A stretch of 64,000 bases of DNA from assembly GCA_965285935.1 (NCBI GenBank), contig OZ260666.1:30690001-30754000 (forward strand), given 5' to 3'. Below are positions 24,751-48,763 of the stretch, piece by piece (position 1 is the first letter of the stretch; each line of letters starts with the position of its first letter). The position numbers and the translations under genes are program-made. The notes beneath the pieces are model-generated. The model had not been told where the DNA came from and did not search any database. It saw nothing but the letters and a program-made list of their open reading frames with translations. The stretch is from Ophelia neglecta (Eukaryota).

Positions 24751-27700
24751 CTATGTCGAATGACCAGTTTGTTCCTCCACTTTTATCAGCAGTCCAGTAA
24801 TGATCACAGTTCCTCGCCTATTGGTAGCCCATTCTAACTCTGCATTTGGAAATTTGTCATCCATCTGTTTGTTTCCAAGTCCTATAGTTTCTTTGCCCAC
24901 CTCATACGAATCTGGACGTATACGGACCTGGAGGGCCACTCGGGCCTTAAACTGCCTACCAGCGTCCTGAAAGCTAGAAATAGGAACACAGTTTCAACCT
25001 GAAATATTCTCAGAAGCAATTCGAGATATGTCAAATCGGAACCCTCACCAACGGAGATATATTTGTCTGGACATTTGTCTTACATGATAAACCGATATTT
25101 CAGAAATACCTTTGTAGTGGGGCATATACATTGCATCCAGCGTATTTTATAGAAGGGGACAAAAAAAGCCTGCGAATATCATGACCGCTGGGCGCGCTAG
25201 CTTCATTCCAGTGGTTCTTTGGAGGCTCTATCCTTTCTCCTTCCTGGGTCACATCACCTATAAGGAATGGCATCGTTATACTCAGCAAGTTTTCATAAAT
25301 TCTGATAAAATGTATGGTACGAAGACAAGTTCATAAAAGTTCAAAGCAAAGTTTGATACCGGGCATCAGTAGGTCACCGGTTTCCATAATGCTTTTTATT
25401 AAACTGGACCTGGTGCCGTGGAAGGCGACATGCCACTTAGAAAACGCCTTCAAACCGTCTGCTCTTGGCGGGGTTCTGGTTTAGAGGGAGAATAAAAACA
25501 GTAAAAAGTCAAGTACTGAATACAGTTGTATGCTGGTGGGCTAATTGTGTTTCGAAGGAAATGGACACCCATAATGTGCCCGTTCATACAGAGAAAAACA
25601 AGCGTGTCGCCCCTGTTTTAAATATACTAGTATATAACATATCATTACTACTTTTATTTCAGAATTTCAATAACTTATATCGTATTCTTTCAACTCACTT
25701 GAGGCCATATTTACACCAGCCCATTGGTATACCATACAGTTTAGGCGGTACACCCCTCTTGAGATACAAATCGTGTCCACGCTTTGAGTGACAACGGGTA
25801 CAGAAACAGGAGTCAGCAGTGTGTTCATAAAATGCGGCTGTCAAGGTATTCAAAAATAACAAATTGATATATCAAATGGGTAGTCTTGTCTGGTTATTCT
25901 CATGCCCAGTACATTTTATAATATATTTAATAGTTGTTTTATTACAATTTTTTTTACTTGTTTAGTATAACATTAAAGGCCTAGACTCACTCTTAAATTA
26001 TGAAACATTTCATTTGTCTTACGTGCTAAGCTTATAATTTCTTTAAATTTGGCACAGAGGTCCTGATAAGGACAGCTATCACCTGACGCGGCTCCCGGCT
26101 GAGATGGTAGGGCGGTTCCGAAGTTCATACTTTGGGCTATACAAGGGAAACACGTTATGGTCAATAATATATCTTAAATAATGTATCTTAAAAAGACGCA
26201 ATTATTGGAACACAACTCAATTGTGTTCAACGGCAATCACATGCAGAGAAGTTTTAACTCAATATCATGCAAGAAGCAGTATGATCAGGACTGTGCTACG
26301 AGTGGTCATCAACTTTTGAAGAGAGGGGAGGGGGGGGGGATCCTTGGGGGTGGGGGCAAACAATTGCAGCATATTCAAATTGGACGTGCGGGGGGGGGGG
26401 GGCACAATTTTATGACATATTATTTATCAAGAACGTTCAATATTAAGTATTAATTTCATTTTCTTTCCATGAAAGAACTTCCTATTTAATTTTTAATGTT
26501 GATGTAAAATGCCATTTGGTTACTTCGGCGGTGCTCACAGTTATTATCCCATTTGATTTATAGGTCGAGGGATGTTTTTGCAAGAATAATACATCTTCAT
26601 GCATGAACTGTTTAACTTCCCTTTAAAATAAAAAAGATATCCGAAAAAGCGTATTATGCGGTACAACTTTGATTGAGACGGGGTGGGGGGGGGGGGGACT
26701 GATAAAGGAAATATCAAATGCTTGTCGTAGCCTTATTAAAATTTCGCCCCGATACCGTAGTAAGGAGTGACGTCCCCCCTCCCTTTCCCGTAGTAAATAC
26801 CCACCCTCAATTGGAGTATGTATGCTTTCAACTTCTCCGTGAGGATAGAAGGCGGCGCCCTGTTGAGAGTAATCCTCATTACTAGACGAATCCAATCGTG
26901 ACGCCGTGGAATCAGACCTCGGAATGGTAACTGCTTCTGGAAGCCAACATGAAAAACGGGACAAATTGTCGATATTCTTTTGATGAAAACATCTTGAGCT
27001 TAAAGTTCATTTAGGCCTACTTACACATGCCTGATTACCCGGCCCTTTTCCGACAATGGTTGAAAGGCCCTTCTAGCATATTTAAAAGGTGGTAATTTAC
27101 ATAGGAATGTCACACGACTCTAAATTCCCTGAATCAGCATTCTAAGATGGGTTGTGGCTATATTGCAATAGGGCCAATCAGAACGGGCGTTCTTAAGTGT
27201 CGTCGAGAATGAGGCAATCAAGCATGATAGTGAGCTGATCTACAGAAATGGATTAGAAGGTTCGAGAAACATATTTTTCCAACCTTTTTGTACGACCTCC
27301 AGTTCTAGACCGGGGGCCATGTCTAGTTCCATCACGGCCCAATGAGGGCCAGTACGGTCTGAGAACGCCCTCCCCATGTCATCACCGTTCTGATAAAAAT
27401 GAATATCCCCGGATGACGTCATCAGAACGCCCACAGTGTCTCCATTCACTACATTCCTCACCATATCGTTGTTGTACGGTCGAACGTAGGCGCCGTCGTA
27501 AAACAGGTTATTCATGTTGATAATGCACGATTCGCTTTTCAGTTTGAATAATCTGTCCGGTATGTTGGCGTCCTCAAGGTCCGTGGGATCAACAGGAATC
27601 ACTCCCATGTTGACATATGCCTCTGCCTACAGGGAGAGGTAACGCCAGACATTAAAAACATCATTTATACACAATTGTATAAAACTTGTTCTTATAAATA

Positions 27701-30700
27701 CTTATAAATAAAGGAAAGTTTGAGGCACAGTGATATGATGAAGGCACAGCCTTGGGTCGAGCGTAGATATACAAATTATACAAAACACGAGAGTTATGGG
27801 CATCTAGAACATTTGTACCAAAAACACCTATAAGGCCTACACACTTGCATATTCACTTAAATTCATATCATGAAAGCAAGATTCTTTGGGTTTTATGAAC
27901 CGTACAAAGCACGCCCGGAGCTCGTGAAATGTAGCGGGCAGCCACCGTCACTACGAAATGGGCCAGCAACCGTTCCAACTTTTACCCTTTTGCCAGCAGT
28001 TGCCTAGTCCAGAATCAGTATTCTGCAGCCGGAAACAAACCCATTTTGAAAAATTGACAGTATTCAGGTTTTCATATGATCTCCCATACAGGCTTTTTCC
28101 ACATGTCCCATGTGCACACATGTAACTACAAATATTATCGAGTGTAGCTCGAGGCTGGGCCCTCCATCTTGCAATAAAATATGTGCCACTGGAATATGTC
28201 AAAACAGCTGCAAAATCATCTATGAATCTGTATACTTTCTTATTATCAGTTGGGTTGTTTCCGGTTGCACCATTCTGGCGTTGTACGAGCCCTGGCGCCG
28301 CATTGCTAGATTAGCCCAGAATTTTGTTATATGATCTTAACCTATTATTTGTTTCCGTGCTATTTATTCTAGATATCAATAACTGTAGTTTTGTAAGTAA
28401 TTGTATAGCTACGCTCGATCAAAGGCTCTGCCTTTAGGCCTATGACATTACAAATCTCTGTTTTGTTGAGAAAATAAAACAATGTAAATATCAATGCATG
28501 TACGGCACTTCTGCATGAACACCAGTAGCCTAAGAGTGGAGCCACTGGAATCCATATTTTCAGCTGCATGTGAACTCACAGAGGAGATGGTGGCTTTGGC
28601 TTCAAATAGCACGTTAGGTTTTAGAGGTCCTCCACTGAACACAATTGCCTCATTCCTATTTACATATCTACAGGTTGCTGTTTTGTCATTGTTTGCCAGT
28701 AACACGTTTTTTCCGGCCCGGCGGTGGAATTTCATGCCGGTCCCAAGTGGAACATCTGATTTAAATGACAACAAATAAAATTTGGTTATTCACAATGTCA
28801 CGTGTTTAACAACAATAAAAATACACACACGACTCCTTATTATAGGAAAAAAATGTATTAGGTAATTATATTGATGTATCTTAACCATTTCCCTTGAAAA
28901 ACGCTCACTTTTTCATTTCCACTTTAATGTATGCATGGGTCAAAGTACTTTTAACTGATGTTACCTTTTCTAGGAGGCGGGGCTCTTGCTGCTGGCTCCT
29001 CCTCTGCCACTAGAAATTCCTGTTGTTCTGTTGGTATAGCAAATTGTCTGTACAGCATCTCCTGCTCTTCTAAAATACGACATTTCATAATAATGTCAGA
29101 CTATATCGCAGTTCATGCAATGACACGTTCTTTGAATATTTAATTACTAGTGAAATATTATGCATCTTTAAGGAATAAAAACAGAGCCCAGAGAGGCTTT
29201 AAAAAAGAAACACATCTTTAGATGGATGCTTGATTTGACCTCACCAAGATTCTCTTCGCCGAGAAGCTGTTGGTGTTCATGATCAACATCGGGAAAATCT
29301 TCTAACTGTAAATTCTGGGCGTCTATTTCCACCTGATCGCTCTCTTCTATGTTGTCCGAGTCAGAATCAGACAAGGTCGCTGGAAATAAATAAATAAAGA
29401 TGAGGGAAGCTTATAATCAAGAAACGATAAAGTAGAACAAGTGACGGGGAATGCTATTGGAGTTGCCTCAATTTATGAGTGCAAAAGTTCTCATCTTGCT
29501 TACTATTGTAGGGTGGACGAGCGATCTCTTTGGCTGTGGTTTCCAGCTCGACAACAGCCCACACCTTAGAGATTTTGTCTACAGAGTAAGATTTTCCAAG
29601 GTCTTTAGCATTGTGATAGAAATGAATCGCATTATTGGAACTTTTCATGACTCCAACGGTGTCTCCTTTTGCTACCTTCAACAGAAAAGAAATTAAATAA
29701 AAAATATGATAATAGTACTCTTTTGTCTTCATAAGGTTTTATATGGATTGGTCCCTGATTATCTTGCATCGCTTATGTCCTTCAAGCTTTTACTTCGCGA
29801 AAATGTTCACTCAACAATATCGTGCCTACTCCAAATCCTAAATTCCAAGCAATAAACACAAGGAGACCGGATTTTCCCGGTTGCTGCTCCACGGCGATGC
29901 TTGTCCCTCAATATCGATTAAATTGACAATACTAATAAATGTAAACAGGTGTTAGAAACATATCTTTTTAGAGCTGCTTTGACCAGTAATTATCCGTCAA
30001 ATCTCCCCATTTAATATGGCTGGATATTACTGTATAATTAGGTCCAAGTTGGCCATTAGGGACACCCAACGATGGCTCAGGTCAATTTACTAAGAAATTC
30101 AAAAAAAGGTAAGAGCTGGGAACTAACACCCATATAAGACCTTTTTGAAATAGATCTGTTTTAGGCCTATTTGCAAGCCAGCTATATTTTTCGCAGATGA
30201 CCTGATGGCAGCCAGTCAAGAAGATTTTGAGGGTATTTCACTATCAGAACAGATATTCATCAGAACATATTTGTGTGACCTCGTACCATGACTATGCACA
30301 GAGAAAGTGACACGTTTTTATTTGTTACTTCCATGTTTTTGTTGATGTATTTTTTATTTCCTGATAACTTACCTGTATATATTTGCCGCAGGCCCTGATG
30401 ACCGACCCACACCAGCCGATGTGTTCGGGCCGTACCCAGCTGTTGCTGTCCTCGTCCAACCGCCAGTTAGGGTCGACCTCCCAGTGCCAAAACGTGAACC
30501 GGATGTCTTCCCGTCCCGGGTCATCCACCGTGGCTCCCACATGGAGGTAACTGGAAATTCCCTGGAAAATACAGACGCTGCATATGATTGACTTTACGGA
30601 ATGGATGCTGACTAAATGTGCCCAATGTTTTGTTCTTGTCCATTTCAAGTCTATATCAGGCTTTTTAAAACCCTTAGCTTAGGGATGTGTAGCAGTATGA

Positions 30701-32800
30701 TATATTCATGTACTTTCTTGAGCATGCTAAAATAAAAGATAAATGCTGGAAAAATTAGAGGAATTTACTGAACGGGGGTGGGATGTGTGGGGGAGGGGGG
30801 TTGCCCTAATGTGTGCCATTGTGTGGGAGGGCGGAATTTCAAGAAATACAAGATTATATGTCGGGTGAGTCCCTTGGCATGATATTCAATGTGCCTTTTA
30901 AAATAAATATAAGTAAATGGCGTGAGGAATAGAAGCTGCCTTCTAGCCACATTAACTTCGTACACATATTCCGACTGGTAAATATTAGTAACAGAACGTA
31001 TATTGCTGAATGGGTGTTAGGGTCATGAAAGAGGCGTAGCCACTCTTATACTGTCCCGTCTATAATTAGCGGCCACTCCTTTAGTTTTTATCAAATACGA
31101 CCAGCTAGCTAAAAAAAAACTTCTGCAAAGCTTTGTGGTGTTATACAGACATCTTCATTTGGTCAATGAATGTGACTTTGATAAACTCAATCAGGCCTAT
31201 GCCATATCGCTAGGCTAGAACATTTTTTGCTTTAAATAAAGTAATCTCTACCATATTTCGGGTTTACTCGAAAGTGTTTAGTATAGCTGTGTTAGGTGAG
31301 TAAATACGCCATTTATGGAGGTAAAACAGATGTGCTATAGAAGTCCTGCATTTCCCTTCGGATTGTACATACTACTAAAGATGAACTAAAATGTTGATGT
31401 TCTAAATAAATTCTTAATATATAGAGCTGCATAAGGTCAATTGGTTAGGGCTTGAATATGTTTTATGTTGTTTTCCTTGATACCTGACTTTTATAGATTT
31501 TTTTTAATTGACAGGAGCATGATTAGCTTGTCGGACAATCAGACACTATTTTTCCAGTCTATATACCATTAATTTAAGATATTTGTTTTATTAATTATCC
31601 CTCTTAAGTAAGGATAACGCCCCGACATGTAATCTCACATGTACTTGCTGTATAGCAGGCTTTGTAGACTTTTATAAGTACGGTATATAAAGTTCAAAGT
31701 CAACCATATCAGGCCGTACAGTGTAGATAGGTACTCGGCCACTTAAATGTACAGCGGGCATGTACATTTACTGTGGTGTAAAAATACTATAATAATATGT
31801 AGGCCTGTGGTATAAGGACTAAATACGTGCCTTTACACATCCAAACAGTTGGCATATGATAGGTTATAATGGGTTTGCCTATATATTATATGGCAGATCT
31901 ACATTGGAAACATAAAACGGGACATTATGTAGATCTAGGATAACACATAAACCATTCATACGAAATCCTTGTCAGAAGCTTCCTTGATATATATTTGATA
32001 GCACGGGCATAAGTAGTAGGCCTATGGGTGACAATTTAGTTAATAAATCCCGTTTTATATACTTTTCTGGGAATTTCTAGGTTAAAAAGCATTTAAAAGG
32101 GACTATATCACATTAAAATATAGCCACTTAAAGTTGAATTGAATTACTTTAACTAACATATTTCTTTTGTTTAGAGCAAATTTTGTACCCTCTAGGAATG
32201 AACTTTGCAATGTACATGTGAAATTATCTTTGTAAGATAAACTGTGAATAGAACATAATTTCACGATTCACAGTGATCACTTTTTTGCCAATCACAAGTC
32301 ACGAACTTGCATATAAGCGCACCCCTACCCCCCCCCCCCCCCCCTCCCCACCGACCTAATCTGACCTAGGAACCATGTCTTCGAAAGGTGTATGTGGTGG
32401 TGTTCCAAGGGGTGGGTGGGGGGAGGTCGTATATAGCCCCCTGGGCAGCAGGCATGTTTCGCATTTTTAAGAAACCAATTAGATATTAAATAGATATTGA
32501 ACCCTGGCCCTATTATTAACATGTCTATTAGGAGAGGAGCCTCTTATAAAGTTATGGATATGCAAACGGAAATACATACCGGTAGTAACGTTAGTTAAAT
32601 TAGTTGTACGGAGATAGAGAACTTACATCAATATTCAACAGCTTAACCTCGTACAAAACGTCCACTTCCAACGGCTCCGCACTGTAAACAACAGCTCCTT
32701 CGTTCACCGCCCTACTCTTTCTCTTAGCAATTTGACCATTATTTCGTAACTTCACATTCTTCCCTGTGTATTTGTGAAAAAGGACAGTGTTAGTCGCCAT
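24751..32800 (-). CDS. NEURL4: NEURL4-like protein: 2 NHR (Neuralized) domains with acidic linker, Cys/His cluster, C-terminal ADP-ribosyltransferase (PARP-like) domain; 721 aa, 13 exons
   Basis: Phase-consistent exons 32800-32627, 30561-30373, 29675-29504, 29379-29245, 29069-28965, 28755-28580, 27626-27284, 26936-26805, 26136-26023, 25837-25699, 25475-25360, 25257-25110, 24973-24751 (2166 nt). NHR motifs: FHKYTGKNVKL, FHRRAGKNVLL, GDTVGV..IHFY.N..D.G. Cys cluster: CPYQDLC..CFCTRCH. ART motifs: YGIPMGW, WHVAFHGT, LFLSPSIKYA, LQVRIRPDSY, ELEW. Likely a paralogue rather than the 6-NHR orthologue. Confidence 0.9.
29730..29985 (+). mobile_element. Decayed L2-group LINE 3' fragment (intronic)
   Basis: Fragments KVLYGLVPDYLASL, GDRIFPVAAP and LETYLFRAA, separated by frameshifts, match the L2 ORF2 C-terminus. 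Confidence 0.55.
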
Positions 32801-32860
32801 AGTGTAAAGCATACGACATTTCCAATATCGAAACCTTCCTGATGGGCGAAAATACCAGTA

Positions 32861-32933
32861 GTTATCTTTGGGGATTCCCCCAGCTTAAGTATGCTACAAC
32901 TATGCACTTTTTACTGCGAGGTTACATGACTCA
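32861..32933. promoter_or_regulatory. Candidate immune-responsive module upstream of NEURL4-like: GATA, NF-kappaB and AP-1 sites
   Basis: GGGGATTCCCC at 32870-32880 (palindromic kappaB site), AGATAAC on the minus strand at 32861-32867, TGACTCA at 32927-32933. All lie 60-135 bp from the ATG at 32800. Confidence 0.6.
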
Positions 32934-34127
32934 GACGGTGAGTGTAAGTTACAATGAGCGAACGTAGCAAGGGGCCGTTCAGTGTTCTATACGCCGTATG
33001 CCACATGGGAGTGGTATAAAATGAAAACACCATTGGAAAGCTGTCTAGAAGATTAACGTTACTTTCGAACAAACTTTCCTCTTTAAATCTTAAAATAGGC
33101 CTTGAAATGCAAGAAACGAGCTTTTGTTACCAACTTCGGCCCCAGCAAACTTTTTTTCTTTAAAAGGCCTAGCTATGAAACAATTTTTTTTTCTAACTTG
33201 AATATGTTGAAACAAATTCTCCAAAATTAACTTGTATTAGCATGAATAAGCTAGTAATTGTTAGCAGCATTTCTGTTTTAGGTTATCTAAGGCCTTATCA
33301 CATCTTTATGAGTGTCAAGTGTAAAATGGGAATGAAAATCCCGCATTGGAACCCCCCCACCCCCACCCCACGGATAATAAACAGCTGGAGCCTCCCCACC
33401 CCCGACCCCCCACCCCAGGATAAATTATGGAAAATCCCTAGGTTACTGCTCTCAAGCTTGCACAAAAAAGGATTAGTATTGTGTTTTTTTTTTTCTAACT
33501 TATACATATTAACTTCACGAAACAGAATTTAAAGTACAGTGGACGAGTTTCCCCAGCAGTGAAAATACCTATGATGGCTGTTTTAAATTTTTCTTTATAT
33601 TTTCGTGATTTATTTATACTTAGATCTAGTCAGAAGAAAGGGAATATGAAGGGAAAATAAACTGAAGAATGTTTACTTTTTATGTATTATGTAGCACAGT
33701 GTGTCGTTTGAATAAACATTTATTGTCTATATACATACATTATTACGAATAAAATAATATTACAAGCGGGCTGCCTTGGACACACAAATTTTTTTCACTC
33801 ATAAGCGACATATTTTCCCCTTAGATCTGCCCAACTGAGGCATTTCTTTAGATTTGTCTTTGTTATTGTTTTGCCATATCATTTCAATACACTGCATGCA
33901 CACTCAATTTTGTCTTCTATTGAAAACTGTCTGTTAAGAAGTCAACAAACACTACATAGAAACGAAGACACGTTTTAATTGAGTTAAGAGATCCCAACGC
34001 GCTGTTAAAAAACCTGGCTGCGACTGAAGTAGTCGTATCTTGTCGCAGTCTAGTCTTCATTTATCGTGCGATGGTCGTGCGATTGTCGTGGGACAAGTCT
34101 TTCGTGTTATCCTTCATTGTCAATGTT

Positions 34128-34187
34128 CAGACCAGTATTTTTCAGTCCCTTGGAGTTGGGTGGTCTTAATTCACAGGTTTCACTGAA
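34128..34187 (-). mobile_element. Terminal fragment of a Tc1/pogo-like MITE
   Basis: The reverse complement begins CAGTGAAACCTGTGAATTAAGACCACC, a TIR type common in invertebrate Tc1/pogo-like MITEs. The other end was not found. Confidence 0.4.
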
Positions 34188-35996
34188 CTTGTAAATCCAC
34201 AATCGGAGTAAATGTATACTTTCCTAAAGTAGCTGTCGATGATATTCCCAAACAAAATTGAAACAACAGAAACAAATTCCTGATACGACAATCGCAATGT
34301 TTCCCATTAAATTAATAACTAAACTACACGATAGAGGATTTACAGTAATTCTTAATCACTAGTGTCAACGAACATCATAATACAAAACCTCTAAAAATGA
34401 TAACACTAATATAAATGTTTTTCAATTAAATTTAAATATTGAATCTGAGAATGATTCGGAAACTGATGCTCACAGTGATCATTATGATGTTGTCGAGTGA
34501 CATATTAAAATCAATTCAATATGAAGGCGTTTTATTATCATGAAACGGCACTAGATATATGTGATATTTAATTCAATCATGTCAAAGAGGAATGAGATCA
34601 TGGGGTGCCTAACTCATCTCTTCTGGCAGACTCTTAATATCTCTGGAACAACAGAGTATATATAAATTTCCAATATAATACGAGGAAAAAGGAACACATC
34701 GCTATGTACAAACAACACAAAAATACACCAACACATACATTGGTATGTACATTATTTGCTTTCTCCCGATTGTAAACAGCACTCCTGATGTCGTATTCAT
34801 AGAGTTTTGCAAAAAAAATACCTTTTCAAAGACCTTGCTTAAGCCAAGGAAAACACCCATCTTTATATATAGGGACAATCTTTACGAGATTTAACTCGGG
34901 AGTACAACCAGGGCCATAGAAGATTCAATATGTGGACCAATTGCTGAAAGGAAAGTATAACTGATATGTTCGTTTTCCATCATTTGCATGGTTGCTATCG
35001 CAACCTGAGCTGGCCTCCTTGAGCGTAGCAATAATGTTTGTACTCTCCTCTGATTGTCTCATTTATAAAAATAGACAGTTAGCCTTGTTGTGTAACCAAA
35101 GTATCGCTGTTGTAGTAGGTATAAATTAAGCCAAGGTGGGGACCCACATTAACTAAATTGTCATTAAAACCATTAGCAATTCACTTATTGTCAGTCACCA
35201 ACTAATCAAGGAGCCTTGAATTTTGCTTATAAGTTTTAAGGCGGGGCATCTGGTGGGATACTATCCTCAATGCATTGAAATGTGTCGTGCAGAGAAACCA
35301 TTTGTGTAGACGTCCCTTCAGAATTTTTGATATATTTGTATACTCTTCTTGCTCTTCTTACGAAACTGGCATGTGACAAAAAACTGCATTTTCAATTAAC
35401 GGGCAGTATTGTACCTTCTTGTTCTTGCTGTGATTTTTTTCACGTGAACTTGTGAAACTTGAATAATAACCTGGATCACCAACTATACACATGTGGAATC
35501 TGCAAATAGTACGTTTTAGCTCATCCTTTAACCATTTTGTGCATCAACTGTTTCTCGTCTTGGTTGTTTGTCACTTCTGCCAACACAGGACAACAGAGAC
35601 CCAGCACAAGATATCGTATATATTGTTTCGTGCTTACCCAGCATGTAGATGGCTGAAGTGGACCCGTCTGTCATACGCAGGGAGCACCATTCATAGTCAC
35701 ATGACTTTTCAAGAAGACTTTTCAAAGACTTCCTTCCTTAAGCCTTATCCTGAAGGCAGAAAGGCTATACAAATTTTCGGTTACACGTTCACATCGCGAC
35801 ATCTAATTTTCTTGAATGTTAGAAAGTAACGAAACCTATAGCTGGGTACATTGGACTGTCACCGTGGGGTGTTAGAGTTTCCACCATATAGCATTTACAT
35901 CTCGAGTTCCTGCAGAACGGATATATTTACCTGTATTCATTGGTTATACCGTTACTTCGACTAAAATGGAATTTTCTTGACAAATGTACCTGAACG

Positions 35997-37579
35997 TCAA
36001 AAACTGTTCGTTGGCGTCCTCGACTGCCCTTTTATACCCCATGTGCCCTTGATGCAGGACGTTCGACAGTTGCAGGGTGCTGGCTCATTTTCCCCGCTAC
36101 AAACTCTGTCTTCGAGTGGCACGTGTACCGTAAGCCCATGTTTGGGGCGTACGCCGGTGCCCCTGAAAAGAGGGCTTTCGGCGGCATTTAGCGGGTACTG
36201 AAGCCGACGGGGTACAAGTTCGTTGCCAGCCTCTGGTAAGCGGTGTCTTTTGCAGCAATGGAATACATGCTGGAGTAGATTGCCACTAAACGCCATGTAG
36301 ATCCAGGGGTTACAGCAACTGTTCAGGTTTGCTAACAACAAGCATATCACGAAAGTATAACCTGCAAAACAGAAAAAATAAATAAATGTGGCTTAATCAT
36401 ATATGTTATCGCCACGGTCGAGAGAAAAATAATGTTTCCGTTTTTATGATCATTGAAAACAACAAAATACAGACGCCGTTAGTTTTCAATAGATATTAGA
36501 ATTATGAATACATTGTACTCACTGTCGTGAGGTGCTGTTTCGTCGTAAGCCCACCACATTTGAGTAATCATGAAAGGTGACCAGCAAATAAGATAAGCAA
36601 GAATCACTACTATTGTTAATTTGATAGTTTTCAATTTTGAACTAGATAGGTTATGACCAGTATGACGTCGAGGTATACCCATAAGTCTTTGAGAACTGCT
36701 GCGATCGTTTTGTGACGACTGGTCCTGTATAACGCAAATATGACCCGAGCCGTTGAATTTGTAAGTAATTTTCCCAGTAGGCAATCGGGAAACACCATTT
36801 AGGTTGCCATGTTTACTATGGCGAACGTTCTTCCACACTTCATGACAAATTCTTCCATATAGAATTACAAGAACTGCGAATGGTATAATGTAGACTGTCA
36901 ATGTAAATGATGTGATGTACAATTGTAAAGTCCATCCGGGATGGAAATGTGCCCAACAGTCAAACTCTCCTGGCGCTAATTCCCGTTGTCGGAATATTAT
37001 CACCTGTGGTATACTGAGAAATGCAGCACAAAGCCAAGCTATGCCTACCATCCTATGAACTTTTCGCGGTGTCCAAGAGTAAGAAGACAGTGGTTGACAG
37101 ATGGATCTGTAGCGATCCACCGCAGTTATCACCAGAACGTAGGTACTCAAATAAATGACCATTACCTGCATGTACTTCACAAACCGACACAAGGGGTCGC
37201 TTCCCATAAACCGGAAGGTTGCATCCCAAGCCAACTGTGGAAGGACATTAAAAGTGGCGACAAGTAAATCTGCAACACTAAGATGCATTATTAAGAGGTG
37301 TATGCGGCTTGTTTTCATTTTGCGATAGCGAAGGGCTAATAGAACACAAACGTTTCCGATTAGAGCCATTATGAAGATAAAGGCTTGCACCCCTATCTCT
37401 ATTTTGGCCAATCTTCCATCTCGCGCAGTCGCAGTCATGTTATTTATTTCTGAAACGATTTCCATGCCAAAAGCTGTAGTCGTCATTTCAGGACTAAGGC
37501 TCTTCCGGAAATAATTAACGGTCTGGGCCCGTGCTGACAAGCTGTTGGTTACATCAAACGTCCTCCCCTGAGCGCTCAT
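35997..37579 (-). CDS. Vasopressin/oxytocin-type (conopressin/cephalotocin-like) class A GPCR, 473 aa, 2 coding exons
   Basis: Exons 37579-36523 (A|gtgagt) and 36361-35997. Motifs [75 protein letters not shown]. The intron between TM6 and TM7 is as in OT/VP receptors. An acceptor directly before the ATG (exon starts 37581) implies upstream exon(s). Confidence 0.93.
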
Positions 37580-38129
37580 TCCTAACACAAAAAAAGAAGA
37601 CCAATTAAATAGAAAAACAAAATGATCAGGTGGCATAGTTTGTTAATACTATAGTATAAGTAGGATATTTCTGAAGTGTTCAAGTAATATCATTAAGGAA
37701 TACAGCTAAAAGGTCCAATTAGAAAGCGACGACTAGATAAACGAAGGCCTACATCATTGCCTATTTGCCTTTTTTTCTAGCTTAAAAACAATAACATTCT
37801 ACCTACCAAGACATAAATGGCGTTGACCGTTCAAACAATATTATAAATTAACCACAGTCCGTTTCTGCCAGATATTGCCTTACTAGTTGACCTCTCGTGT
37901 GTTGTCTATGAGACATTGACATGTAATTGACTAAGCAAAGTTAATAACCGTTATTACCGCTGAGTATGAGAATGTGTATTTAGATTCTCAAGTGTCAAAT
38001 TTGTGGATGGTAACACGACTCCTATGAACCAGTGCAAAGCTGTCAAATCAGAAAGAGTGCTATCAATTCCTTGTTGGCCAAAGAAAAGTGTCTTTATAGA
38101 GCACTTTAGGAAACTGCCTAGCATTAATC

Positions 38130-41100
38130 AGTAGAATAGTTAGACCTTGTCCGCTATAATTTCCCCTGGGTGTGTCCAGAAGGCTTCTACACGTGAAAGG
38201 GCGCCAACATAGCAGTAAAAGAAGAGATGATACTGAGGGTTTCGAAATCTTATCGGATTTAGGATATTTCTACATGATATATGATGTTTTATGTGTTCGT
38301 ATATATAACATTTCGACCATAGTGACAACCCGTATCTTCATGATCAATATTTTTATAATAATAATGGTTACTAATAATAATGACATTTCTCGCCTGAATA
38401 AACAAGAGTTACGTGTGGGACAATGGAATTGCAGGGGTTTTAGTAGCTCAAAAAATTACATATGCTCACTACTAAATTCTTGCGACATCCTGGGTATAAA
38501 CGAACATTTCTTGTACCCGCACGAACACCAAAGACTTACTGGTTTACACCCTAATTTTCACGGTATAGCCAAATCTAGTAAAACACTTCACGTAGAAAAC
38601 TATGGCAGCGTAATTGGTTGCGGGGGTGTCGCCATATACTGGGCAAAATATATTGATAATGTTCAAGTTGTAAATATTGACTCTGATCGTATCTGTGGCA
38701 TACAGTTAGTTAATGCTGATGGTACTACCTTGTCTATTATGTGTGTATATATGCCACAGCAGCAATGTAAGAATGAAACATACTCTGATATATTAGATGT
38801 ACTTTATGAACATGTAACGAGTCTAAGCGAGACAGGGTCTGTCATAATCATTGGTGATTTGAATGCCAACCTCGACAAAAGTCATGGTAAACGTGGCCCA
38901 AATAAGCCAATACTAACGACTAACGGTAAATTACTGAATGAGTTTACCGTATCTAACTGTTTAAAAGCAATTGACTTGTCGGATAAATGCATTGGACCAC
39001 TTTATACTTACATAGGATACGACGGGTCCAGGTCATATATAGATCACTGTCTTGCTTCTGATGCTCTTGTACCTAACGTAAAAAGTTGTAAAATAATCGA
39101 TGACAATTTGCATATCACGTCTGATCACCTTCCCATTATTACCACCTTCGCTCGGGAAAACATATGCAAATTGGTCCACATCAACCCAGTCTCCCACCAG
39201 AGACTAAACTGGAGCAGGCTAACACAGGAGGAAATCTCATCGGGGTACACCAGAGCCCTGACACATGTCTTGACCAGTGACCCGAGGTTAAAGGAAAAGC
39301 CATCGACATGTGAAGATATCGACAACTACGTGAAACTACTTACAGCGGCTCTGACCTACACTGCTAAGGCTACCATACCATGTAAGCAGTATCGTAAATG
39401 GGTAAAACCATATTGGAGTCCTGACATCAATACCACAAAGAAAGAACACCTAAGAAATTATAACGAATGGAATAATGCAGGTAGACCACGTAGTCATGAA
39501 AACGTTTTATTCGTAAGGTATAAAGAGTCAAAGAGACAGTATAGAAAAGAGAGACGCGCAGCAGAACATCGGGAGGCCGAACGAGAACAGAACGAGATTA
39601 TTCAGACTGGAGAAATTGACCAGAAATATTACTGGCGACTGGTCAACAGCAAGAGACAAAAAGGAGTGCGAGTCAATTTAACAGAAGGCGAAAATGGTCG
39701 CCTCTTGACAGAAATGGAGGAAATTCGCGAGGATTGGCGACTGTATTTCTCAAACCTGGTCAAACCGAACGATGATCCCACATACAAGAGTAAGTTTAAA
39801 AACCTCGTGGAGGAGAGCGCTAAAGAGTACTACGACTCGCCACAGCTTATGCCTGACGATATTTCCTGCCTACCAATTACTGATAATGAGGTAATGGCTA
39901 TGGTGAAAAAGGCAAAATCAGACAAAGCTGGAGGTTTTGACGGCTTAACTGCAGAGCACCTGAAACACGGAGGGGGCCAATTAATCTCTACAATCACGAA
40001 TTTATACAACGCAATCTTGGAGATGGAATACGTCCCAAGTGACTTCAAGCGTGCCATAGAAGTGCCCTTATTCAAAGGAGGGGGCAAGAATCCGAGACTC
40101 AAAGACAACTATAGAAAAATAAGCTTACTTCCTAGCCTAGGGAAGATCTTGGAAGGTATATACCATCGGAGGATACAGAGCTGGTCTCGAAATCAGAATC
40201 TCGTCAACCCACTACAAGGGGCGGCCTTAGATAAGTGCTCTAGTCGACACTCTACTATCTTATTAAGGCAGACAATACACGAACACAAAGAAAGAGGCGA
40301 CGATGTATATGTAACGTTGCTGGACTGCAGAAAGGCGTTCGACACCATATGGATAGATGGGCTTTTCTACAAACTCTACCACTATGGTATTAGAGGAAAG
40401 ACCTATAGGATACTCCGCCAATGGTATAGTAATTTTCTGAGTTCTGTTCGTGTGGGGAACGAGCTGTCTGATTGGTTTGATGTCTCACAAGGCTTGCACC
40501 AAGGAGGGATGCTATCCATGCAACTCTTCGTCCTATATTACAATGACATGCTCCAACAAATATCAGAACGGAATCTCGGATGTCATATATTGGGGATAGA
40601 TTCAAGTTGCCCAGGATTTGCCGACGATATAACCTTGGTGACATCCAGCCGTAAATCCATGTTAGCACTCCTTGACATTGCCCATGCTTATAGCAAAAAG
40701 TGGCGCCTGGACTATAATGTGTCTAAATGCGAGATGCTTAAGTTTGGCCATCTCAAAACAAACAGAGACGAGAGAGTCCATCTTGGCCCAGGATTGATCC
40801 CAATTTCTGAAAAATCCGTCCATCTCGGTGTCCCCCTTGTGACAACCAGGAAGGCAATGACCGAGAGTGTCCGCGACCGAGTTAAGTCTGCACGAAGGAA
40901 GATGAACTCACTCCTTGGCGTAGGGACAAGCTATGGGCGATACAACACTAGAACGTTATCTAAACTGTACTGGTCCATTGTCACCCCCAGCTTCTTGTAT
41001 GGCCTGGACTTGGTAAGGCTTACTTTGACCCAGCTAGACCTGCTCGAAGTAGAGCATCGCAATACGGCAAGAAGGATTCAAAACCTCTCACCAGCAGCCA

Positions 41101-42085
41101 GTAATGCAGCCGTCCTAGTGTCCTTGGGATGGCCCACAGTGGAAGCTTACCTGGATGTACAGCGATTAAAGACATTACGCGACCTACTTGACTTACCGAC
41201 ATCCTGCATCTATCGGACGCTCACTATAAGAACACTCACTGTGAAAGAATTGCGTGGAAGGGTCCCACCTGAAAGCCCTATAGGATTAATGGTGTCTACT
41301 TATCTGAAGTACGGACTGTATAACACCCTTACAACATGGTTGGAGAAGGGAAAGGTACCTACCAAGACCGCCTGGAAACGACACGCTAAAGAAGTCTCTC
41401 GGCAGTACCTACAGCGTCACTGGAGGATACAATGTCTCACCTTCTCAAGCCTCTCTCTTTTCTCATCAGTCATGACAGAGTACCGCCCTATGGAGTGGTG
41501 GAATTCTGCTACGACAATGACGACTACTAGAGGAGCCCAGGTTGTATTAAAATTGCTCACAGGTACGTCCGCCATATATTCCCACTCCGGTAGACATGTC
41601 AACCGAATGGGGCGCAACATATGCCCCCTATGTGACACAGTAGGAGACAATTTGGAGCATATCTTATACATGTGCCCCGGTTTGTGTGTGGAACGAGCGA
41701 AGGTGCTTGCTTGCATCAGACGTGATATATCACCAGATATTGATAAGTGTCAAAAGATACTCGATTGGAGGTCATATTGCATTGAGGACCGACTAAAGGT
41801 ACTCGCAGGTATAAGCTCCATGTACGGCAAACGTATACATCACGGTTTGAGTAATGCTTAATCAATCCTGACCATGTAGTAGTGGTATACGTACATAAAT
41901 GTGTTCTAGCAGGGTATTCCTTATCATCTCTATAGTACATCATCTTAGTATGGAGACTGTATATATGTTTTGTTTATTCTCGGTAATTACTTGTCGCAAA
42001 TTTGCCTGTAGTTTATTTATATCACATCTTTAATGTACATGTAACTCTCCAGAAAGTGGAGGCCAAATAAAACTATATATATATA
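38130..42085 (+). mobile_element. Non-LTR retrotransposon (LINE, possibly RTE-X-like) with intact EN-RT ORF
   Basis: The 3' end has a CTCCA-GAAAG-TGGAG hairpin (42047-42061), AATAAA and a (TA)n tail to 42085. The 5' boundary is approximate, with no unambiguous TSD or ORF1. The clade call is tentative. Confidence 0.88.
38172..41861 (+). CDS. LINE ORF2: AP endonuclease, reverse transcriptase, C-terminal CCHC zinc knuckle
   Basis: Uninterrupted 1229-codon ORF. EN motifs: GQWNCRG, GINEH, GDLNA, SYIDH, SDHLPI. RT motifs: YRKISLL, LLDCRKAFD, QGGMLS, FADD. Knuckle: CPLC..EHILYMC. The true start is probably an internal ATG near 38340-38365. Confidence 0.92.
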   Translation: MSRRLLHVKGRQHSSKRRDDTEGFEILSDLGYFYMIYDVLCVRIYNISTIVTTRIFMINIFIIIMVTNNNDISRLNKQELRVGQWNCRGFSSSKNYICSLLNSCDILGINEHFLYPHEHQRLTGLHPNFHGIAKSSKTLHVENYGSVIGCGGVAIYWAKYIDNVQVVNIDSDRICGIQLVNADGTTLSIMCVYMPQQQCKNETYSDILDVLYEHVTSLSETGSVIIIGDLNANLDKSHGKRGPNKPILTTNGKLLNEFTVSNCLKAIDLSDKCIGPLYTYIGYDGSRSYIDHCLASDALVPNVKSCKIIDDNLHITSDHLPIITTFARENICKLVHINPVSHQRLNWSRLTQEEISSGYTRALTHVLTSDPRLKEKPSTCEDIDNYVKLLTAALTYTAKATIPCKQYRKWVKPYWSPDINTTKKEHLRNYNEWNNAGRPRSHENVLFVRYKESKRQYRKERRAAEHREAEREQNEIIQTGEIDQKYYWRLVNSKRQKGVRVNLTEGENGRLLTEMEEIREDWRLYFSNLVKPNDDPTYKSKFKNLVEESAKEYYDSPQLMPDDISCLPITDNEVMAMVKKAKSDKAGGFDGLTAEHLKHGGGQLISTITNLYNAILEMEYVPSDFKRAIEVPLFKGGGKNPRLKDNYRKISLLPSLGKILEGIYHRRIQSWSRNQNLVNPLQGAALDKCSSRHSTILLRQTIHEHKERGDDVYVTLLDCRKAFDTIWIDGLFYKLYHYGIRGKTYRILRQWYSNFLSSVRVGNELSDWFDVSQGLHQGGMLSMQLFVLYYNDMLQQISERNLGCHILGIDSSCPGFADDITLVTSSRKSMLALLDIAHAYSKKWRLDYNVSKCEMLKFGHLKTNRDERVHLGPGLIPISEKSVHLGVPLVTTRKAMTESVRDRVKSARRKMNSLLGVGTSYGRYNTRTLSKLYWSIVTPSFLYGLDLVRLTLTQLDLLEVEHRNTARRIQNLSPAASNAAVLVSLGWPTVEAYLDVQRLKTLRDLLDLPTSCIYRTLTIRTLTVKELRGRVPPESPIGLMVSTYLKYGLYNTLTTWLEKGKVPTKTAWKRHAKEVSRQYLQRHWRIQCLTFSSLSLFSSVMTEYRPMEWWNSATTMTTTRGAQVVLKLLTGTSAIYSHSGRHVNRMGRNICPLCDTVGDNLEHILYMCPGLCVERAKVLACIRRDISPDIDKCQKILDWRSYCIEDRLKVLAGISSMYGKRIHHGLSNA

Positions 42086-44721: not shown

Positions 44722-44746
44722 TTGGCGACGAGGATAAACTTTAGTT

Positions 44747-47700
44747 ATGGCTGCATCAGATTTGACCGATGTTCGTGGGATCAAACCGTTTGACACCACC
44801 GGAGAGGCCGGAGTTGTATCGCACCGGTGGCGGGCTTGGCTAGAGGAATTTGAAGCCTATGCCGATTCTAAAGGTTTGTTTGTCGATGATGAGACGGATG
44901 CAAACAAGGCTCAGAGGAGAGCATTGTTACTGTATTCTGCTGGTGCTGCCGTACGGGACGTTTACGGTACGTTAGCTGGAGAAATTACGGCCGCGATAAG
45001 GAAAGACTACAAAGGTACGGTTACACATTTGAATAATCATTTCATCGTGGAGGCCAACCAGTCATACCCCAGAATCCCATTTTTCTCGTGTATGCCGAAA
45101 GAGGGGGAGACAGTAGCCCAATTTGTAACCAGACTGAGAATAGCATCACGTGACTGTGGTTTCGGTAATGGCTGTGATGATATTATAAGAGACAGAGTGG
45201 TGTTATCCTGGATGGATCCTGTCTTGAAGAGGAAGTTAGTGGAAAAGGGGCTTACACTGAAGCTTGCTGAACTTCTTAGAATTGCTGCAGCCCATGAGGC
45301 AGTCGAATTACAAATGAAAGCTATGTCAGGGGTACAGAACACTGCGAGTACAGATTCTGTGAATGCTGTTAAAGGCAAATCATGGACAGATGGTGATAAA
45401 GCCAAAAAGATAGAATGTTTTCGCTGTGGGCTTTTTGGACACATGCGTAATGACTCAAGTTGCCCTGCTAAGACACAATCTTGCAGACGATGTGGGTTAG
45501 TCGGCCATTTTGAAAAAAAGTGCCGCCGAAGACCACAAACAGGTGTGAAAGACCACAAACAGCCAAAGTCAGGTGACAAGAAACAGCGGAGACATAAGAA
45601 GGTACACCATTTACAGAAATATGACAGTGATAGTGAGGGAGATGATGGCTATGCGTTTGCCACAGGTTCGTCATTTGAAACGATTCCCATCTCTGTTGGA
45701 GGAGTACAGATAGAAGTAGTGGTTGACAGTGGGAGTGACAGTAACATAGTATCTGAAGAAACATGGAAATCACTGAAAGCAAATAAAATTAGGTGTCAGT
45801 CAAGGTCTAGTGCCAAGAAGTTATACCCATATACTTCTGACACACCTCTTGAGACTCTTGGATCATTTGATACAGTGGTCACAGCAGGAAATATGACAAC
45901 AAATGCCCATTTCATTGTGATCAAGAGAAAAGGTGAATCACTTCTCAGTCGACCTACTGCACTACAGCTAGGAGTGCTGAAGATAGGGTTAGGTGTCAAC
46001 TCAGTCAGTGCTCAGATAGATATTGTCAAACGTCACCCAAAAGTTTTCGAAGGCATTGGAAAATTGGTCAACCGTCAGATAAAACTTAGCATTAACCCTG
46101 ATGTCAAGCCGGTTGCACAACCAGTCAGACGCTCACCGTTTGGTCTCCGAGCTAAAGTAGAGGCCAAAATTAAGGAGCTGATTGACAAGGACATAATAGA
46201 GCCAGTCGAAGAGCCCAGCCATTGGGTGAGTCCAGTAGTAGTCGTTCCGAAGGCCAAGGGGGACATACGTCTTTGTGTGGACATGCGTCAGGCCAATTTG
46301 GCAATACAGCGAGAACGACATCCGATACCAACGTTTGAGGAAGTCCTACATGATATGAACCAAAGTCGAGTGTTTAGCAAGGTGGATTTGCGTTGGGGCT
46401 ATCATCAGCTCGAGTTAGAGCCCGAATCTCGTAACATCACAACTTTCGTTACACATTGCGGATTATTCCGCTACCGTAGACTTGCATTTGGAATAAATTC
46501 AGCATCAGAAATATACCAACATGAAATACATAAGGTGATTCAAGGGATTCCTAAAGTGGAGAACATTTCTGATGATATCATAGTTCATGGTCAAAACATG
46601 GCAGAGCATGATGAATCTCTGGAGAAATTGATGAAACGTCTTGAAACCAGTGGTTTAACACTCAATTTAGAGAAGTGTGAGTTTCGAGTGAACAAGATCA
46701 GTTTCTGGGGACACTGCCTTTCTGAGAAGGGAGTTGACCTTGGCGCCGATAAAGTGGAGGCAATCGCAAAGGCACGAGAGCCCCAGACTGTCAGTGAAGT
46801 GAAGAGTATTTTGGGTCTGGCCGAGTTTTGTCACGATTTTGTGCCTGATTTTTCAGTCATGGCAGAACCATTGTATAAACTTACCAGAAAGGGAAATCCA
46901 TTCATCTTTGGACCTGAACAGAGGAAATCATTTAAAGCCCTTCAAGCAGCACTGAGTAATCCAGAAACTCTTGGTTATTTTGACATTAATGCACATACCA
47001 AGGTGATCGCGGACGCGGGCCCGTCCGGTGTAGGTGCTGTACTTGTACAAATTCAGGAAAACAAGCCTAGGGTGATTAGGTATGCAAGCCGCTTACTTAG
47101 TGATGTGGAGCGCAGATACTCGCAAACAGAAAAGGAAGCTTTGTCACTTGTGTGGGCGTGTGAAAAGTTCCATCCATACCTTTATGGAATAACTTTTGAT
47201 TTGGTCACAGACCACAAGCCTTTAGAGACTATTTATTCGCCAAAGTCGAAACCATGTGCACGAATTGAGCGATGGGTACTGAGACTACAACCGTATGAAT
47301 TCAAGATAGTTCACATTCCTGGTAAAAATAACATTGCAGATTCACTTTCAAGGTTATTGAATGGTGAAATAGAAGGCCAATCTAGGCTATCAAGGAGAGC
47401 CGAGAACTATACCAGATTTGTGGCAGTTAATGCTACTCCGTCCGCAATGACAATCAGAGAAGTCGAGGAAGCCTCAGCAGAAGACCCTGAGCTGGAAGAA
47501 ATCCGTGTATGTATAGACACTGGCAAATGGGACTGTAGTGAGAAACTGTACAATGCTGTCAATCCAGAATTATGCAGCATTGGGAAACTAGTCCTAAGAG
47601 GGTCAAGAATTGTTATTCCGAGAAAATTGAGACCTAGAATACTGGTCTTAGCTCATGAGGGACATTTAGGCATTGTGGCTACGAAACAAAACCTAAGGTC

Positions 47701-48763
47701 GAAGGTTTGGTGGCCTGGTATAGATCGTGAAGTAGAAAAATACTGTAAGACGTGTCACGGATGTCAGCTAGTGAGTCGTCCATCACCACCTGAACCAATC
47801 AACAACAAGATTATGCCTGATAAGCCATGGGAGGACCTAGCAGTAGATTTCTTGGGCCCTCTTCCATCAGGTCATTCAGTGTTAGTCGTAATTGACTATT
47901 ACAGTAGATACTATGAGTATAAGATTATGAAGTCAATCACAGCTGAGAAAACTATTGAGGAAATGCGAGAGATGTTTGCTAGGCATGGACTGCCATTTTC
48001 TGTCTTTAGTGACAATGGTCCCCAGTTCAAAGCAAGAGAATATGGTGAATTTCTGGAATCTCTGGGCATAGAATGGTGTCGGGGCACACCTAAATGGCCG
48101 CAGGCCAACGGAGAGGTGGAAAGACAGAATCATTCTTTGGGCAAGAGACTAAAAATTTCACAGGCAGAAGGCACCGACTGGAAAGATTCCCTCCGTACGT
48201 ATGTAGCAGCTTACAGGTCTCTGCCCCATAGTGTCACAGGAAAAAGTCCTGCAGAGTTATTGTTTGGCAGGAAAATCAGAACAAAGTTACCAGAAATCAC
48301 ATACAACCACAATCATGATGATCTGGAGGTACGGGACAGAAATGCTGAGAAGAAGGGACTCTCAAAATTATACACTGATAACAAGAGGAATGCACAAAGG
48401 TCTGATATTGAACCTGGAGATTCAGTACTTGTGAAATGTGAGAATCCTGGCAAGTTGGACACCCCATATTTGCCTGAACCATACAAAGTTATTAACAAGG
48501 CTGGTAGTAGAATAACTGTTGAGTCTCCTAAAGGTGTTCAGTATGATAGAAATTCCTCTCACCTCAGGAAATACTACAAACCCAGTGTGCATTTAGCAGA
48601 AGAGGACACCAAAGACATGCCTGTCTCACCACTACCTGTCTCTGTGGCTCCTGATGAGCCAAACCAACCGAGACCGCCAGATTGTAGCCCAAAAATATCA
48701 GTGGCTAGACCACAGAGAGCAAGGAATGCTCCAAGTAAATTCGGAGATTATGTCATGAATTAG
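44747..48763 (+). CDS. Gag-Pol polyprotein (Gag with 2 zinc knuckles, aspartic protease, RT, RNase H, integrase)
   Basis: Knuckles CFRCGLFGH..C and CRRCGLVGHFEKKC. Protease VVDSGS. RT LCVDMR, KVDLRWGYHQ, ISDDII. RNase H DAG, EKEAL, TDHKPL. Integrase H..H..C..C, VDFLG, SDNGPQF, NGEVER. Domain order PR-RT-RH-IN is Gypsy-type. Confidence 0.97.
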   Translation: MAASDLTDVRGIKPFDTTGEAGVVSHRWRAWLEEFEAYADSKGLFVDDETDANKAQRRALLLYSAGAAVRDVYGTLAGEITAAIRKDYKGTVTHLNNHFIVEANQSYPRIPFFSCMPKEGETVAQFVTRLRIASRDCGFGNGCDDIIRDRVVLSWMDPVLKRKLVEKGLTLKLAELLRIAAAHEAVELQMKAMSGVQNTASTDSVNAVKGKSWTDGDKAKKIECFRCGLFGHMRNDSSCPAKTQSCRRCGLVGHFEKKCRRRPQTGVKDHKQPKSGDKKQRRHKKVHHLQKYDSDSEGDDGYAFATGSSFETIPISVGGVQIEVVVDSGSDSNIVSEETWKSLKANKIRCQSRSSAKKLYPYTSDTPLETLGSFDTVVTAGNMTTNAHFIVIKRKGESLLSRPTALQLGVLKIGLGVNSVSAQIDIVKRHPKVFEGIGKLVNRQIKLSINPDVKPVAQPVRRSPFGLRAKVEAKIKELIDKDIIEPVEEPSHWVSPVVVVPKAKGDIRLCVDMRQANLAIQRERHPIPTFEEVLHDMNQSRVFSKVDLRWGYHQLELEPESRNITTFVTHCGLFRYRRLAFGINSASEIYQHEIHKVIQGIPKVENISDDIIVHGQNMAEHDESLEKLMKRLETSGLTLNLEKCEFRVNKISFWGHCLSEKGVDLGADKVEAIAKAREPQTVSEVKSILGLAEFCHDFVPDFSVMAEPLYKLTRKGNPFIFGPEQRKSFKALQAALSNPETLGYFDINAHTKVIADAGPSGVGAVLVQIQENKPRVIRYASRLLSDVERRYSQTEKEALSLVWACEKFHPYLYGITFDLVTDHKPLETIYSPKSKPCARIERWVLRLQPYEFKIVHIPGKNNIADSLSRLLNGEIEGQSRLSRRAENYTRFVAVNATPSAMTIREVEEASAEDPELEEIRVCIDTGKWDCSEKLYNAVNPELCSIGKLVLRGSRIVIPRKLRPRILVLAHEGHLGIVATKQNLRSKVWWPGIDREVEKYCKTCHGCQLVSRPSPPEPINNKIMPDKPWEDLAVDFLGPLPSGHSVLVVIDYYSRYYEYKIMKSITAEKTIEEMREMFARHGLPFSVFSDNGPQFKAREYGEFLESLGIEWCRGTPKWPQANGEVERQNHSLGKRLKISQAEGTDWKDSLRTYVAAYRSLPHSVTGKSPAELLFGRKIRTKLPEITYNHNHDDLEVRDRNAEKKGLSKLYTDNKRNAQRSDIEPGDSVLVKCENPGKLDTPYLPEPYKVINKAGSRITVESPKGVQYDRNSSHLRKYYKPSVHLAEEDTKDMPVSPLPVSVAPDEPNQPRPPDCSPKISVARPQRARNAPSKFGDYVMN

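What the first reader, a model, noticed from the sequence alone, without database searches (positions are those of the whole stretch)
32861..32955. Perfect kappaB palindrome with adjacent GATA and AP-1 sites just upstream of the NHR-ART gene
Seen: GGGGATTCCCC 70 bp from the ATG, a GATA site 2 bp away, TGACTCA about 50 bp further and TTACAAT (C/EBP-like) at ~32949. Known: GGGGATTCCCC is a high-affinity Rel/NF-kappaB site, and linked Rel+GATA sites drive insect immune genes. Inference: this ADP-ribosyltransferase is pathogen-inducible, which independently supports an NF-kappaB to ADP-ribosylation defence module in an invertebrate.
Basis: partly seen in the sequence, partly recalled or inferred. 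Interest (0 to 1): 0.7.

Follow-up and report, generated by a model that had tools for sequence, protein, structure and literature searches.

The report
Lone NF-kB site before worm ADP-ribosyltransferase
A textbook binding sequence for the immune regulator NF-kB sits 70 bases before an intact ADP-ribosyltransferase gene of a probable annelid worm and likely controls this one gene, but the gene's relatives lack it, so it does not show a general immune ADP-ribosylation system.

Summary
GGGGATTCCCC (32870-32880), the mammalian MHC-kB site, lies 70 bases upstream of an intact 13-exon, 721-aa NHR-NHR-NEURL4-type ADP-ribosyltransferase gene, in a probable annelid with Rel-type, p50-type and IkB-like genes. 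The site is single-copy. 76 of 98 sampled genomic copies of this 11-mer lie in repeated sequence, and single-copy ones are rare (about 0.19/Mb). One marks the IkB-like promoter; another a promoter between EMC3 and a prefoldin gene, so the motif does not imply an immune effector. A real NF-kB site is somewhat more likely than not (about 0.6), pathogen induction less so (about 0.4); no RNA data were available. GATA, AP-1 and TTACAAT add little: GATA is common, TTACAAT is not a C/EBP consensus, and neither IkB nor p105 promoter has them. The 'module' claim fails its test: of 31 paralogous start exons, 0 have the 11-mer and 1 has a kB 10-mer within 300 bp (0.9 expected). The context is more interesting: at least 150 NEURL4-type ART copies, fused to NHR or to ankyrin arrays of variable length.

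The parts
32870..32880 (.). kB 11-mer GGGGATTCCCC (MHC-kB type), -80 to -70 from the ATG
   Evidence: single-copy context
32862..32867 (-). WGATAR (AGATAA), between the kB site and the ATG; chance-level
32927..32933 (.). AP-1 consensus TGACTCA; post hoc P about 0.01, no support from control promoters
32949..32955 (.). TTACAAT; not a C/EBP consensus match
32839..32860 (-). possible 3' splice acceptor 38 bases before the ATG (score 5.3; 18% of random stretches reach 5). If used, the kB site is intronic
32627..32800 (-). coding exon 1 (ATG 32800), start of NHR domain 1
29504..30561 (-). exons 2-3 (30561-30373, 29675-29504), rest of NHR domain 1
28965..29379 (-). exons 4-5, acidic linker
27284..28755 (-). 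exons 6-7 (28755-28580, 27626-27284), NHR domain 2
26023..26936 (-). exons 8-9, linker and start of the conserved C-terminal region
24751..25837 (-). exons 10-13, NEURL4-type ART domain with HGT (exon 11), SPSIKY (exon 12), ELEW (exon 13), stop at 24751
35997..37642 (-). upstream neighbour: two-exon vasopressin/oxytocin-type GPCR. Its coding end lies 3.2 kb before the ART ATG, so the ART promoter probably lies in between

Best explanation
The 11-mer is a single-copy, promoter-proximal kB element that likely binds the worm's p50-type NF-kB (alone or with Rel) and likely contributes to regulating this one NEURL4-type ADP-ribosyltransferase gene; the GATA, AP-1 and TTACAAT neighbours are probably incidental. 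Shown: the motif, the intact gene with HGT/Y/ELEW motifs, Rel-type, p50-type and IkB-like genes, and the same 11-mer at the IkB-like promoter. Inferred: that the ATG exon is exon 1, that NF-kB binds there, and that binding activates on infection (about 0.4; a p50-type homodimer could also repress). It is a gene-specific acquisition, not a family-wide regulon.
For: Exact MHC-kB sequence, which p52 binds more than 2-fold tighter than the PSel sites tested. RHD genes: C1 has CEGRSAG (Rel-type by recall) and C8 has CEGTSHG (best PDB hits p50/p52). The IkB-like gene carries this 11-mer 285 bases before its ATG with further kB-like sites, single-copy. The p105-type gene has GGGGAAATCCCC plus GGGATTCCCC about 4.4 kb before its RHD exon, with a splice-donor motif just behind, single-copy. 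Only 22 of 98 sampled 11-mers are singletons (0.19/Mb), and at least 2 of the 22 lie within 300 bases of an identified ATG (about 0.2-0.5 expected; P for 2 or more 0.02-0.10 by hand). The window site is not a repeat copy. Paralogues show no acceptor enrichment before the ATG (22% vs 18% background), so the ATG exon is usually first. Gene-body CpG o/e is 0.70 against 0.30-0.44 in five other gene loci; in oyster, CpG o/e differs by gene class and is linked to inducible families (abstract only).
Against: The IkB and p105 promoters hold tight clusters of 2-4 sites; here there is one proximal site and a second 560 bases away. Single-copy 11-mers are not in excess over sibling 11-mers: about 145-170 genome-wide against about 300 for each other GGGGWWWCCCC class, repeats included. 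About 1 chance ATG-proximal case is expected per genome, and this one was picked post hoc. Most of the 22 singletons could not be tied to a gene start. A usable acceptor lies 38 bases before the ATG. p52 binds MHC-kB tightly without activating.
Confidence: 0.57

Rival explanations
1. The 11-mer is a chance match in a GC-richer promoter or first intron and has no role.
For: About 145-170 single-copy 11-mers exist genome-wide with no excess over sibling words. About 1 is expected within 100 bases of some ATG. It is a lone proximal site, absent from the nearest paralogue found and from all 31 paralogous start exons. Some singletons lie in a LINE, in an intron of an AAA_12 helicase gene and near a kinase exon.
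Against: Per-gene chance is 2-5e-5. The ATG-proximal singletons that were identified include the IkB-like gene and a paired-site promoter.
Confidence: 0.33
2. One reading: an insect-type Rel+GATA(+AP-1, C/EBP) composite makes this ART pathogen-inducible and marks a general NF-kB to ADP-ribosylation defence module.
For: The kB-GATA linkage resembles the Drosophila arrangement. The ART family is hugely expanded with variable N-terminal domains, as conflict or immune genes often are (inference).
Against: 1 of 31 paralogous start exons has a kB 10-mer within 300 bases (0.88 expected) and 4 of 29 within 1 kb (2.7 expected); none has the 11-mer. 90 kb of the ankyrin-ART cluster holds 7 matches (6 places), background level. 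No WGATAR or TGASTCA within 250 bases of the IkB or p105 sites.
Confidence: 0.1
3. The site is a remnant of the roughly 1-kb dispersed repeat that carries the same 11-mer.
For: 65 of 98 sampled 11-mers are in that repeat, which also has TTACAAT about 20 bases downstream.
Against: Sensitive blastn of 29 repeat copies against the window gives at best E=4 near the promoter. The 321-base promoter has 1 genomic match, with the tool's caveat that this does not prove rarity.
Confidence: 0.03

Closest known systems
MHC class I kB site 5'-GGGGATTCCCC-3' bound by p50/p52 (bioRxiv 10.1101/2022.05.03.490500, passages read)
   Same: Identical 11 bases; the genome has a p50/p52-like RHD protein.
   Different: Binding and output are untested in this animal; in the paper p52:p52 binds it tightly yet does not activate.
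Drosophila Rel-GATA (Serpent) immune enhancers (bioRxiv 10.1101/2024.06.12.598701, passages; the original studies not seen)
   Same: kB and WGATAR closely linked near the gene start.
   Different: Probable annelid; no evidence of GATA linkage at this genome's IkB or p105 promoters; GATA adjacency is frequent by chance.
Human NEURL4 (PMC8932523, passages; family origin in PMC3417536, one passage)
   Same: NHR repeats plus a C-terminal H-Y-E ART with HG(S/T) and ELEW, the motifs mutated to abolish activity in the human protein.
   Different: Two NHR instead of six. It is a lineage-expanded paralogue, not the orthologue (a multi-NHR gene with ART exons lies at G000:C2:25.65-25.67 Mb). Human NEURL4 is described as a mitochondrial enzyme, not an immune effector.
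Invertebrate NEURL4-like ART fusions (Lingula XP_013418417.1, Glandiceps XP_077984752.1 and XP_077997139.1, Branchiostoma, Saccoglossus)
   Same: 42-46% identity over the ART region for the hemichordate and amphioxus proteins, 35% over a longer stretch for Lingula.
   Different: N-termini vary (NHR, LRR, SPRY, GT4, macro, SH3, kinase). No functional or regulatory study was found in my searches.

Membership tests
Functional NF-kB (kB) element | Matches the kB consensus or a validated site | tested here: met
   Identical to MHC-kB
Functional NF-kB (kB) element | Cognate factor and pathway present in the genome | tested here: met
   Two RHD genes and an IkB-like gene
Functional NF-kB (kB) element | Not part of a common repeat | tested here: met
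Functional NF-kB (kB) element | Lies near the transcription start | tested here: inconclusive
   No RNA holder listed; acceptor test ambiguous, paralogues favour a first exon
Functional NF-kB (kB) element | Evolutionary conservation of the site | tested here: inconclusive
   No related genome held; the nearest paralogue (63% in the last exon) is too old to align. No variant in the site in contigs of 3 runs of one sample, against 11 substitutions in 32723-33079, which is uninformative for 11 bases
Functional NF-kB (kB) element | Bound by Rel/p50 and needed for induction | not testable with these tools
   Needs EMSA, ChIP or reporter assays
Rel-GATA composite immune enhancer | Linked kB and GATA sites | tested here: met
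   2 bases apart, but P=0.055 by chance
Rel-GATA composite immune enhancer | Arrangement recurs at other NF-kB targets of the organism | tested here: not met
   None within 250 bases at the IkB or p105 sites. These are feedback genes, not antimicrobial effectors. 7 IL-17 loci were inconclusive because their promoters may lie outside the fetched DNA
Family-wide NF-kB regulon of NEURL4-type ARTs | kB sites enriched before paralogues | tested here: not met
   1 of 31 within 300 bases, 0.88 expected; 0 exact 11-mers
NEURL4-type ART | H-Y-E motifs (HGT, SPSIxY, ELEW) and homology to NEURL4-like proteins | tested here: met
   (E down to 1e-84 against a Lingula NEURL4-like protein)
NEURL4-type ART | NHR domains | tested here: met
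   Pfam PF07177 on four exon frames
NEURL4-type ART | Enzymatic ADP-ribosylation | not testable with these tools
   Needs an assay

The most novel reading that the evidence does not exclude
The 150 or more NEURL4-type ARTs of this annelid, fused to NHR domains or to ankyrin arrays of variable length, are an uncharacterised innate-immune ADP-ribosylation arsenal, and this member is a direct NF-kB target induced on infection, giving the first handle on the family's regulation.
Probability: 0.28. Interest if true: 0.65.

Novelty: new member of a known kind. Interest (0 to 1): 0.3.

Why it matters
A kB site before one gene is ordinary. It would matter if confirmed because it would tie a large, apparently unstudied invertebrate expansion of NEURL4-type ADP-ribosyltransferases to NF-kB and give a direct reporter test. 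On present evidence it is a reasonable lead for one gene, not evidence for a module.

Tried and rejected
RNA: no RNA holder listed, so no TSS or expression data; this is no evidence either way. Contigs of three runs of one sample showed only allelic variation. The 7-fold genome-wide excess of the 11-mer over its reversed control (750 vs 102) first looked like selection but is due to repeats (76 of 98 sampled). The paired kB sites 8.5 kb upstream of the Rel-type gene, which I first noted as a positive control, lie in a sequence with 3 near-identical genomic copies and were dropped. The site before the THAP frame was dropped too (3 copies in the sample). A third ATG-proximal singleton (L152) was not confirmed as a gene start. 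IL-17 loci were inconclusive. A search for longer homologues of the last exon found none; a metagenome scan with exon 1 found no relative; exon 1 found no paralogue by single-sequence search. Markov estimates for the 11-mer were unstable (150-950 by order) and were not used. One fetched locus meant as a singleton (L143) was a repeat copy and was not counted. No fold or complex prediction was run. A review recalled by id was not held.

Full report
Observation. The window holds one GGGGATTCCCC at 32870-32880, AGATAA on the minus strand at 32862-32867, TGACTCA at 32927-32933 and TTACAAT at 32949-32955. The minus-strand ATG at 32800 opens an NHR exon. A second kB 10-mer lies at 33429. As a class, kB 10-mers are not enriched in the window (7 vs 4.1 expected; 18 of 100 shuffles).

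The gene. Thirteen coding exons, all 12 introns GT-AG, give an open 721-aa protein: NHR, acidic linker, NHR, linker, and a C-terminal domain with HGT, SPSIKY and ELEW (exon boundaries chosen by hand from frames and splice signals). Human NEURL4 has HGS and ELEW, whose mutation abolishes activity (PMC8932523, passages). Homologues are NEURL4-like proteins of Lingula, Glandiceps, Branchiostoma, Saccoglossus and Dimorphilus, with varied N-termini. The neighbouring GPCR's best named hits are Paralvinella and Capitella, so the host is probably an annelid. The last ART exon has 150 scored matches among 220 candidates in the 762-Mb genome, a lower bound that includes the gene itself, unplaced contigs and a few frames with stops. 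A multi-NHR gene with ART exons on C2 is the likely true NEURL4. The nearest paralogue is 63% identical in the last exon, so this is an old, dispersed copy.

Is the 11-mer meaningful in this genome? It occurs 750 times, against 102 for the reversed control. I fetched 98 of the first 100 listed sites (C1, 0-116 Mb): 65 are one roughly 1-kb repeat, 11 fall in four smaller repeat groups and 22 are singletons within the sample, i.e. 0.19 per Mb. The three sibling classes of GGGGWWWCCCC total 911, repeats included, so singletons are not in genome-wide excess. The window's site is not a copy of the major repeat (best E=4 for 29 copies tested), and its promoter has one genomic match.

Positive controls. 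The genome has two RHD genes: one with CEGRSAG (Rel-type by recall) and one with CEGTSHG, whose best PDB hits are p50/p52. One of the 22 singletons lies 285 bases before an ankyrin gene with a DSGLD motif, an acidic tail, and IkBa, IkBb, p100 and Bcl3 among its PDB hits, i.e. IkB-like; further kB-like sites flank it and the region is single-copy. The p105-type gene has a pair of kB sites in single-copy DNA. A pair upstream of the Rel-type gene proved to lie in a 3-copy sequence and was discarded. Another singleton, with a second site 45 bases away, lies 19 bases before the putative ATG of a prefoldin-family gene (UXT-like by recall) and 228 bases before EMC3. So at least 2 of 22 singletons are ATG-proximal against 0.2-0.5 expected (assuming 25,000 genes): a modest enrichment, with one canonical target and one apparently housekeeping promoter. 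Most other singletons could not be assigned.

Position. No RNA run was listed. A candidate acceptor 38 bases before the ATG scores 5.3, within the range of true acceptors but reached by about 18% of random stretches; paralogues show no acceptor excess (22%), which favours the ATG exon being first. The 400 bases round the ATG are CpG-richer than 94% of window tiles. Gene-body CpG o/e is 0.70 against 0.30-0.44 in five other loci, which fits a conditionally expressed gene (PMC2996979, abstract) but is not specific to NF-kB.

Accessory motifs. WGATAR occurs every 356 bases; TGASTCA within 60 bases has P=0.011 before multiple-motif correction; TTACAAT is not TTRCNNAA. None of the three lies within 250 bases of the IkB or p105 sites. 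The Drosophila Rel-GATA rule is real, but nothing here transfers it to this animal.

The module test. Among 31 paralogous NHR start exons with an ATG (from Pfam hits and from regions upstream of ART hits; not every one verified as joined to an ART), none has the 11-mer, 1 has a 10-mer within 300 bases (0.88 expected) and 4 of 29 within 1 kb (2.7 expected). In the 720 kb examined, which includes the window and some overlapping loci, the only other 11-mer is a repeat copy. Ninety kb of the ankyrin-ART cluster shows background density. This samples about a fifth of the family, mainly the NHR type, and related copies are not independent, but there is no sign of a shared kB regulon.

Mechanism. Most likely a p50-containing NF-kB dimer binds this site and modulates this one ART, whose NHR domains would pick protein substrates (inferred). 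Binding about 0.6; pathogen induction about 0.4, since the same site can bind p52 tightly without activating.

Literature. Searches returned no paper on a NEURL4-type ART expansion in annelids or on its induction (listings and abstract starts only). De Souza and Aravind 2012 and a later review were not available and may describe such expansions; no supplements were read.

Verdict. Observation confirmed, interpretation partly supported, novelty low: a plausible kB site before one member of an expanded family. Interest 0.3.

Noticed in passing
G000:C12 (about 1-5.6, 59-69 Mb), C2 (4.0-4.7 Mb), C1, C8: At least 150 NEURL4-type ART copies in tandem clusters. Many carry single-frame ankyrin arrays of very different length (515 to 1682 aa) instead of NHR domains. 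A candidate fast-evolving immune or conflict family, and more interesting than the motif itself.
   Followed up: partly
L042, L078 and 63 other loci on G000:C1: A roughly 1-kb dispersed repeat (copies mostly 82-97% alike, some with longer shared flanks) carries the perfect kB 11-mer and accounts for about two thirds of genomic copies; it could seed NF-kB sites. Its class was not determined.
   Followed up: partly
L064/L102 (G000:C1:65.857 Mb) and L085 (G000:C8:35.328 Mb): IkB-like and p105-like promoters with clustered kB sites and CCAAT boxes: a conserved NF-kB feedback architecture in a probable annelid.
   Followed up: yes
L052/L083 (G000:C1:31.900 Mb), L188: A 3-copy, 99% identical sequence with two kB sites lies 8.5 kb upstream of the Rel-type RHD exon; possibly a recent insertion that supplies autoregulatory sites.
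   Followed up: partly
L195 (G000:C1:115.06 Mb): Paired kB sites in the head-to-head promoter of EMC3 and a prefoldin-family (UXT-like, by recall) gene.
   Followed up: partly
L031:3945-3955: One other NHR paralogue has GGGGAATCTCC about 42 bases before its ATG; its close relative L032 has a degenerate version.
   Followed up: partly
window 35997-37642 (-): Two-exon vasopressin/oxytocin-type GPCR, the upstream neighbour of the ART gene.
   Followed up: partly
window 38160-41861 (+) and 44738-48763 (+): Open LINE-type endonuclease-RT frame (1233 aa) and open LTR-retroelement pol frame with RT, RNase H and integrase (1341 aa).
   Followed up: no
window about 33950-34200: Very high-copy short repeat (summed contig depth above 100,000) between the GPCR and the ART promoter.
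   Followed up: no
window 32939-32950 and 33015-33021 (+): Two consensus splice-donor motifs and a TATAAAA on the plus strand; a divergent transcript is possible, but there is no evidence for one.
   Followed up: no
window 3863-4702 (+), 8445-9215 (+): A 279-aa frame with no Pfam hit that looks coding, and a Thr-rich mucin-like frame.
   Followed up: no
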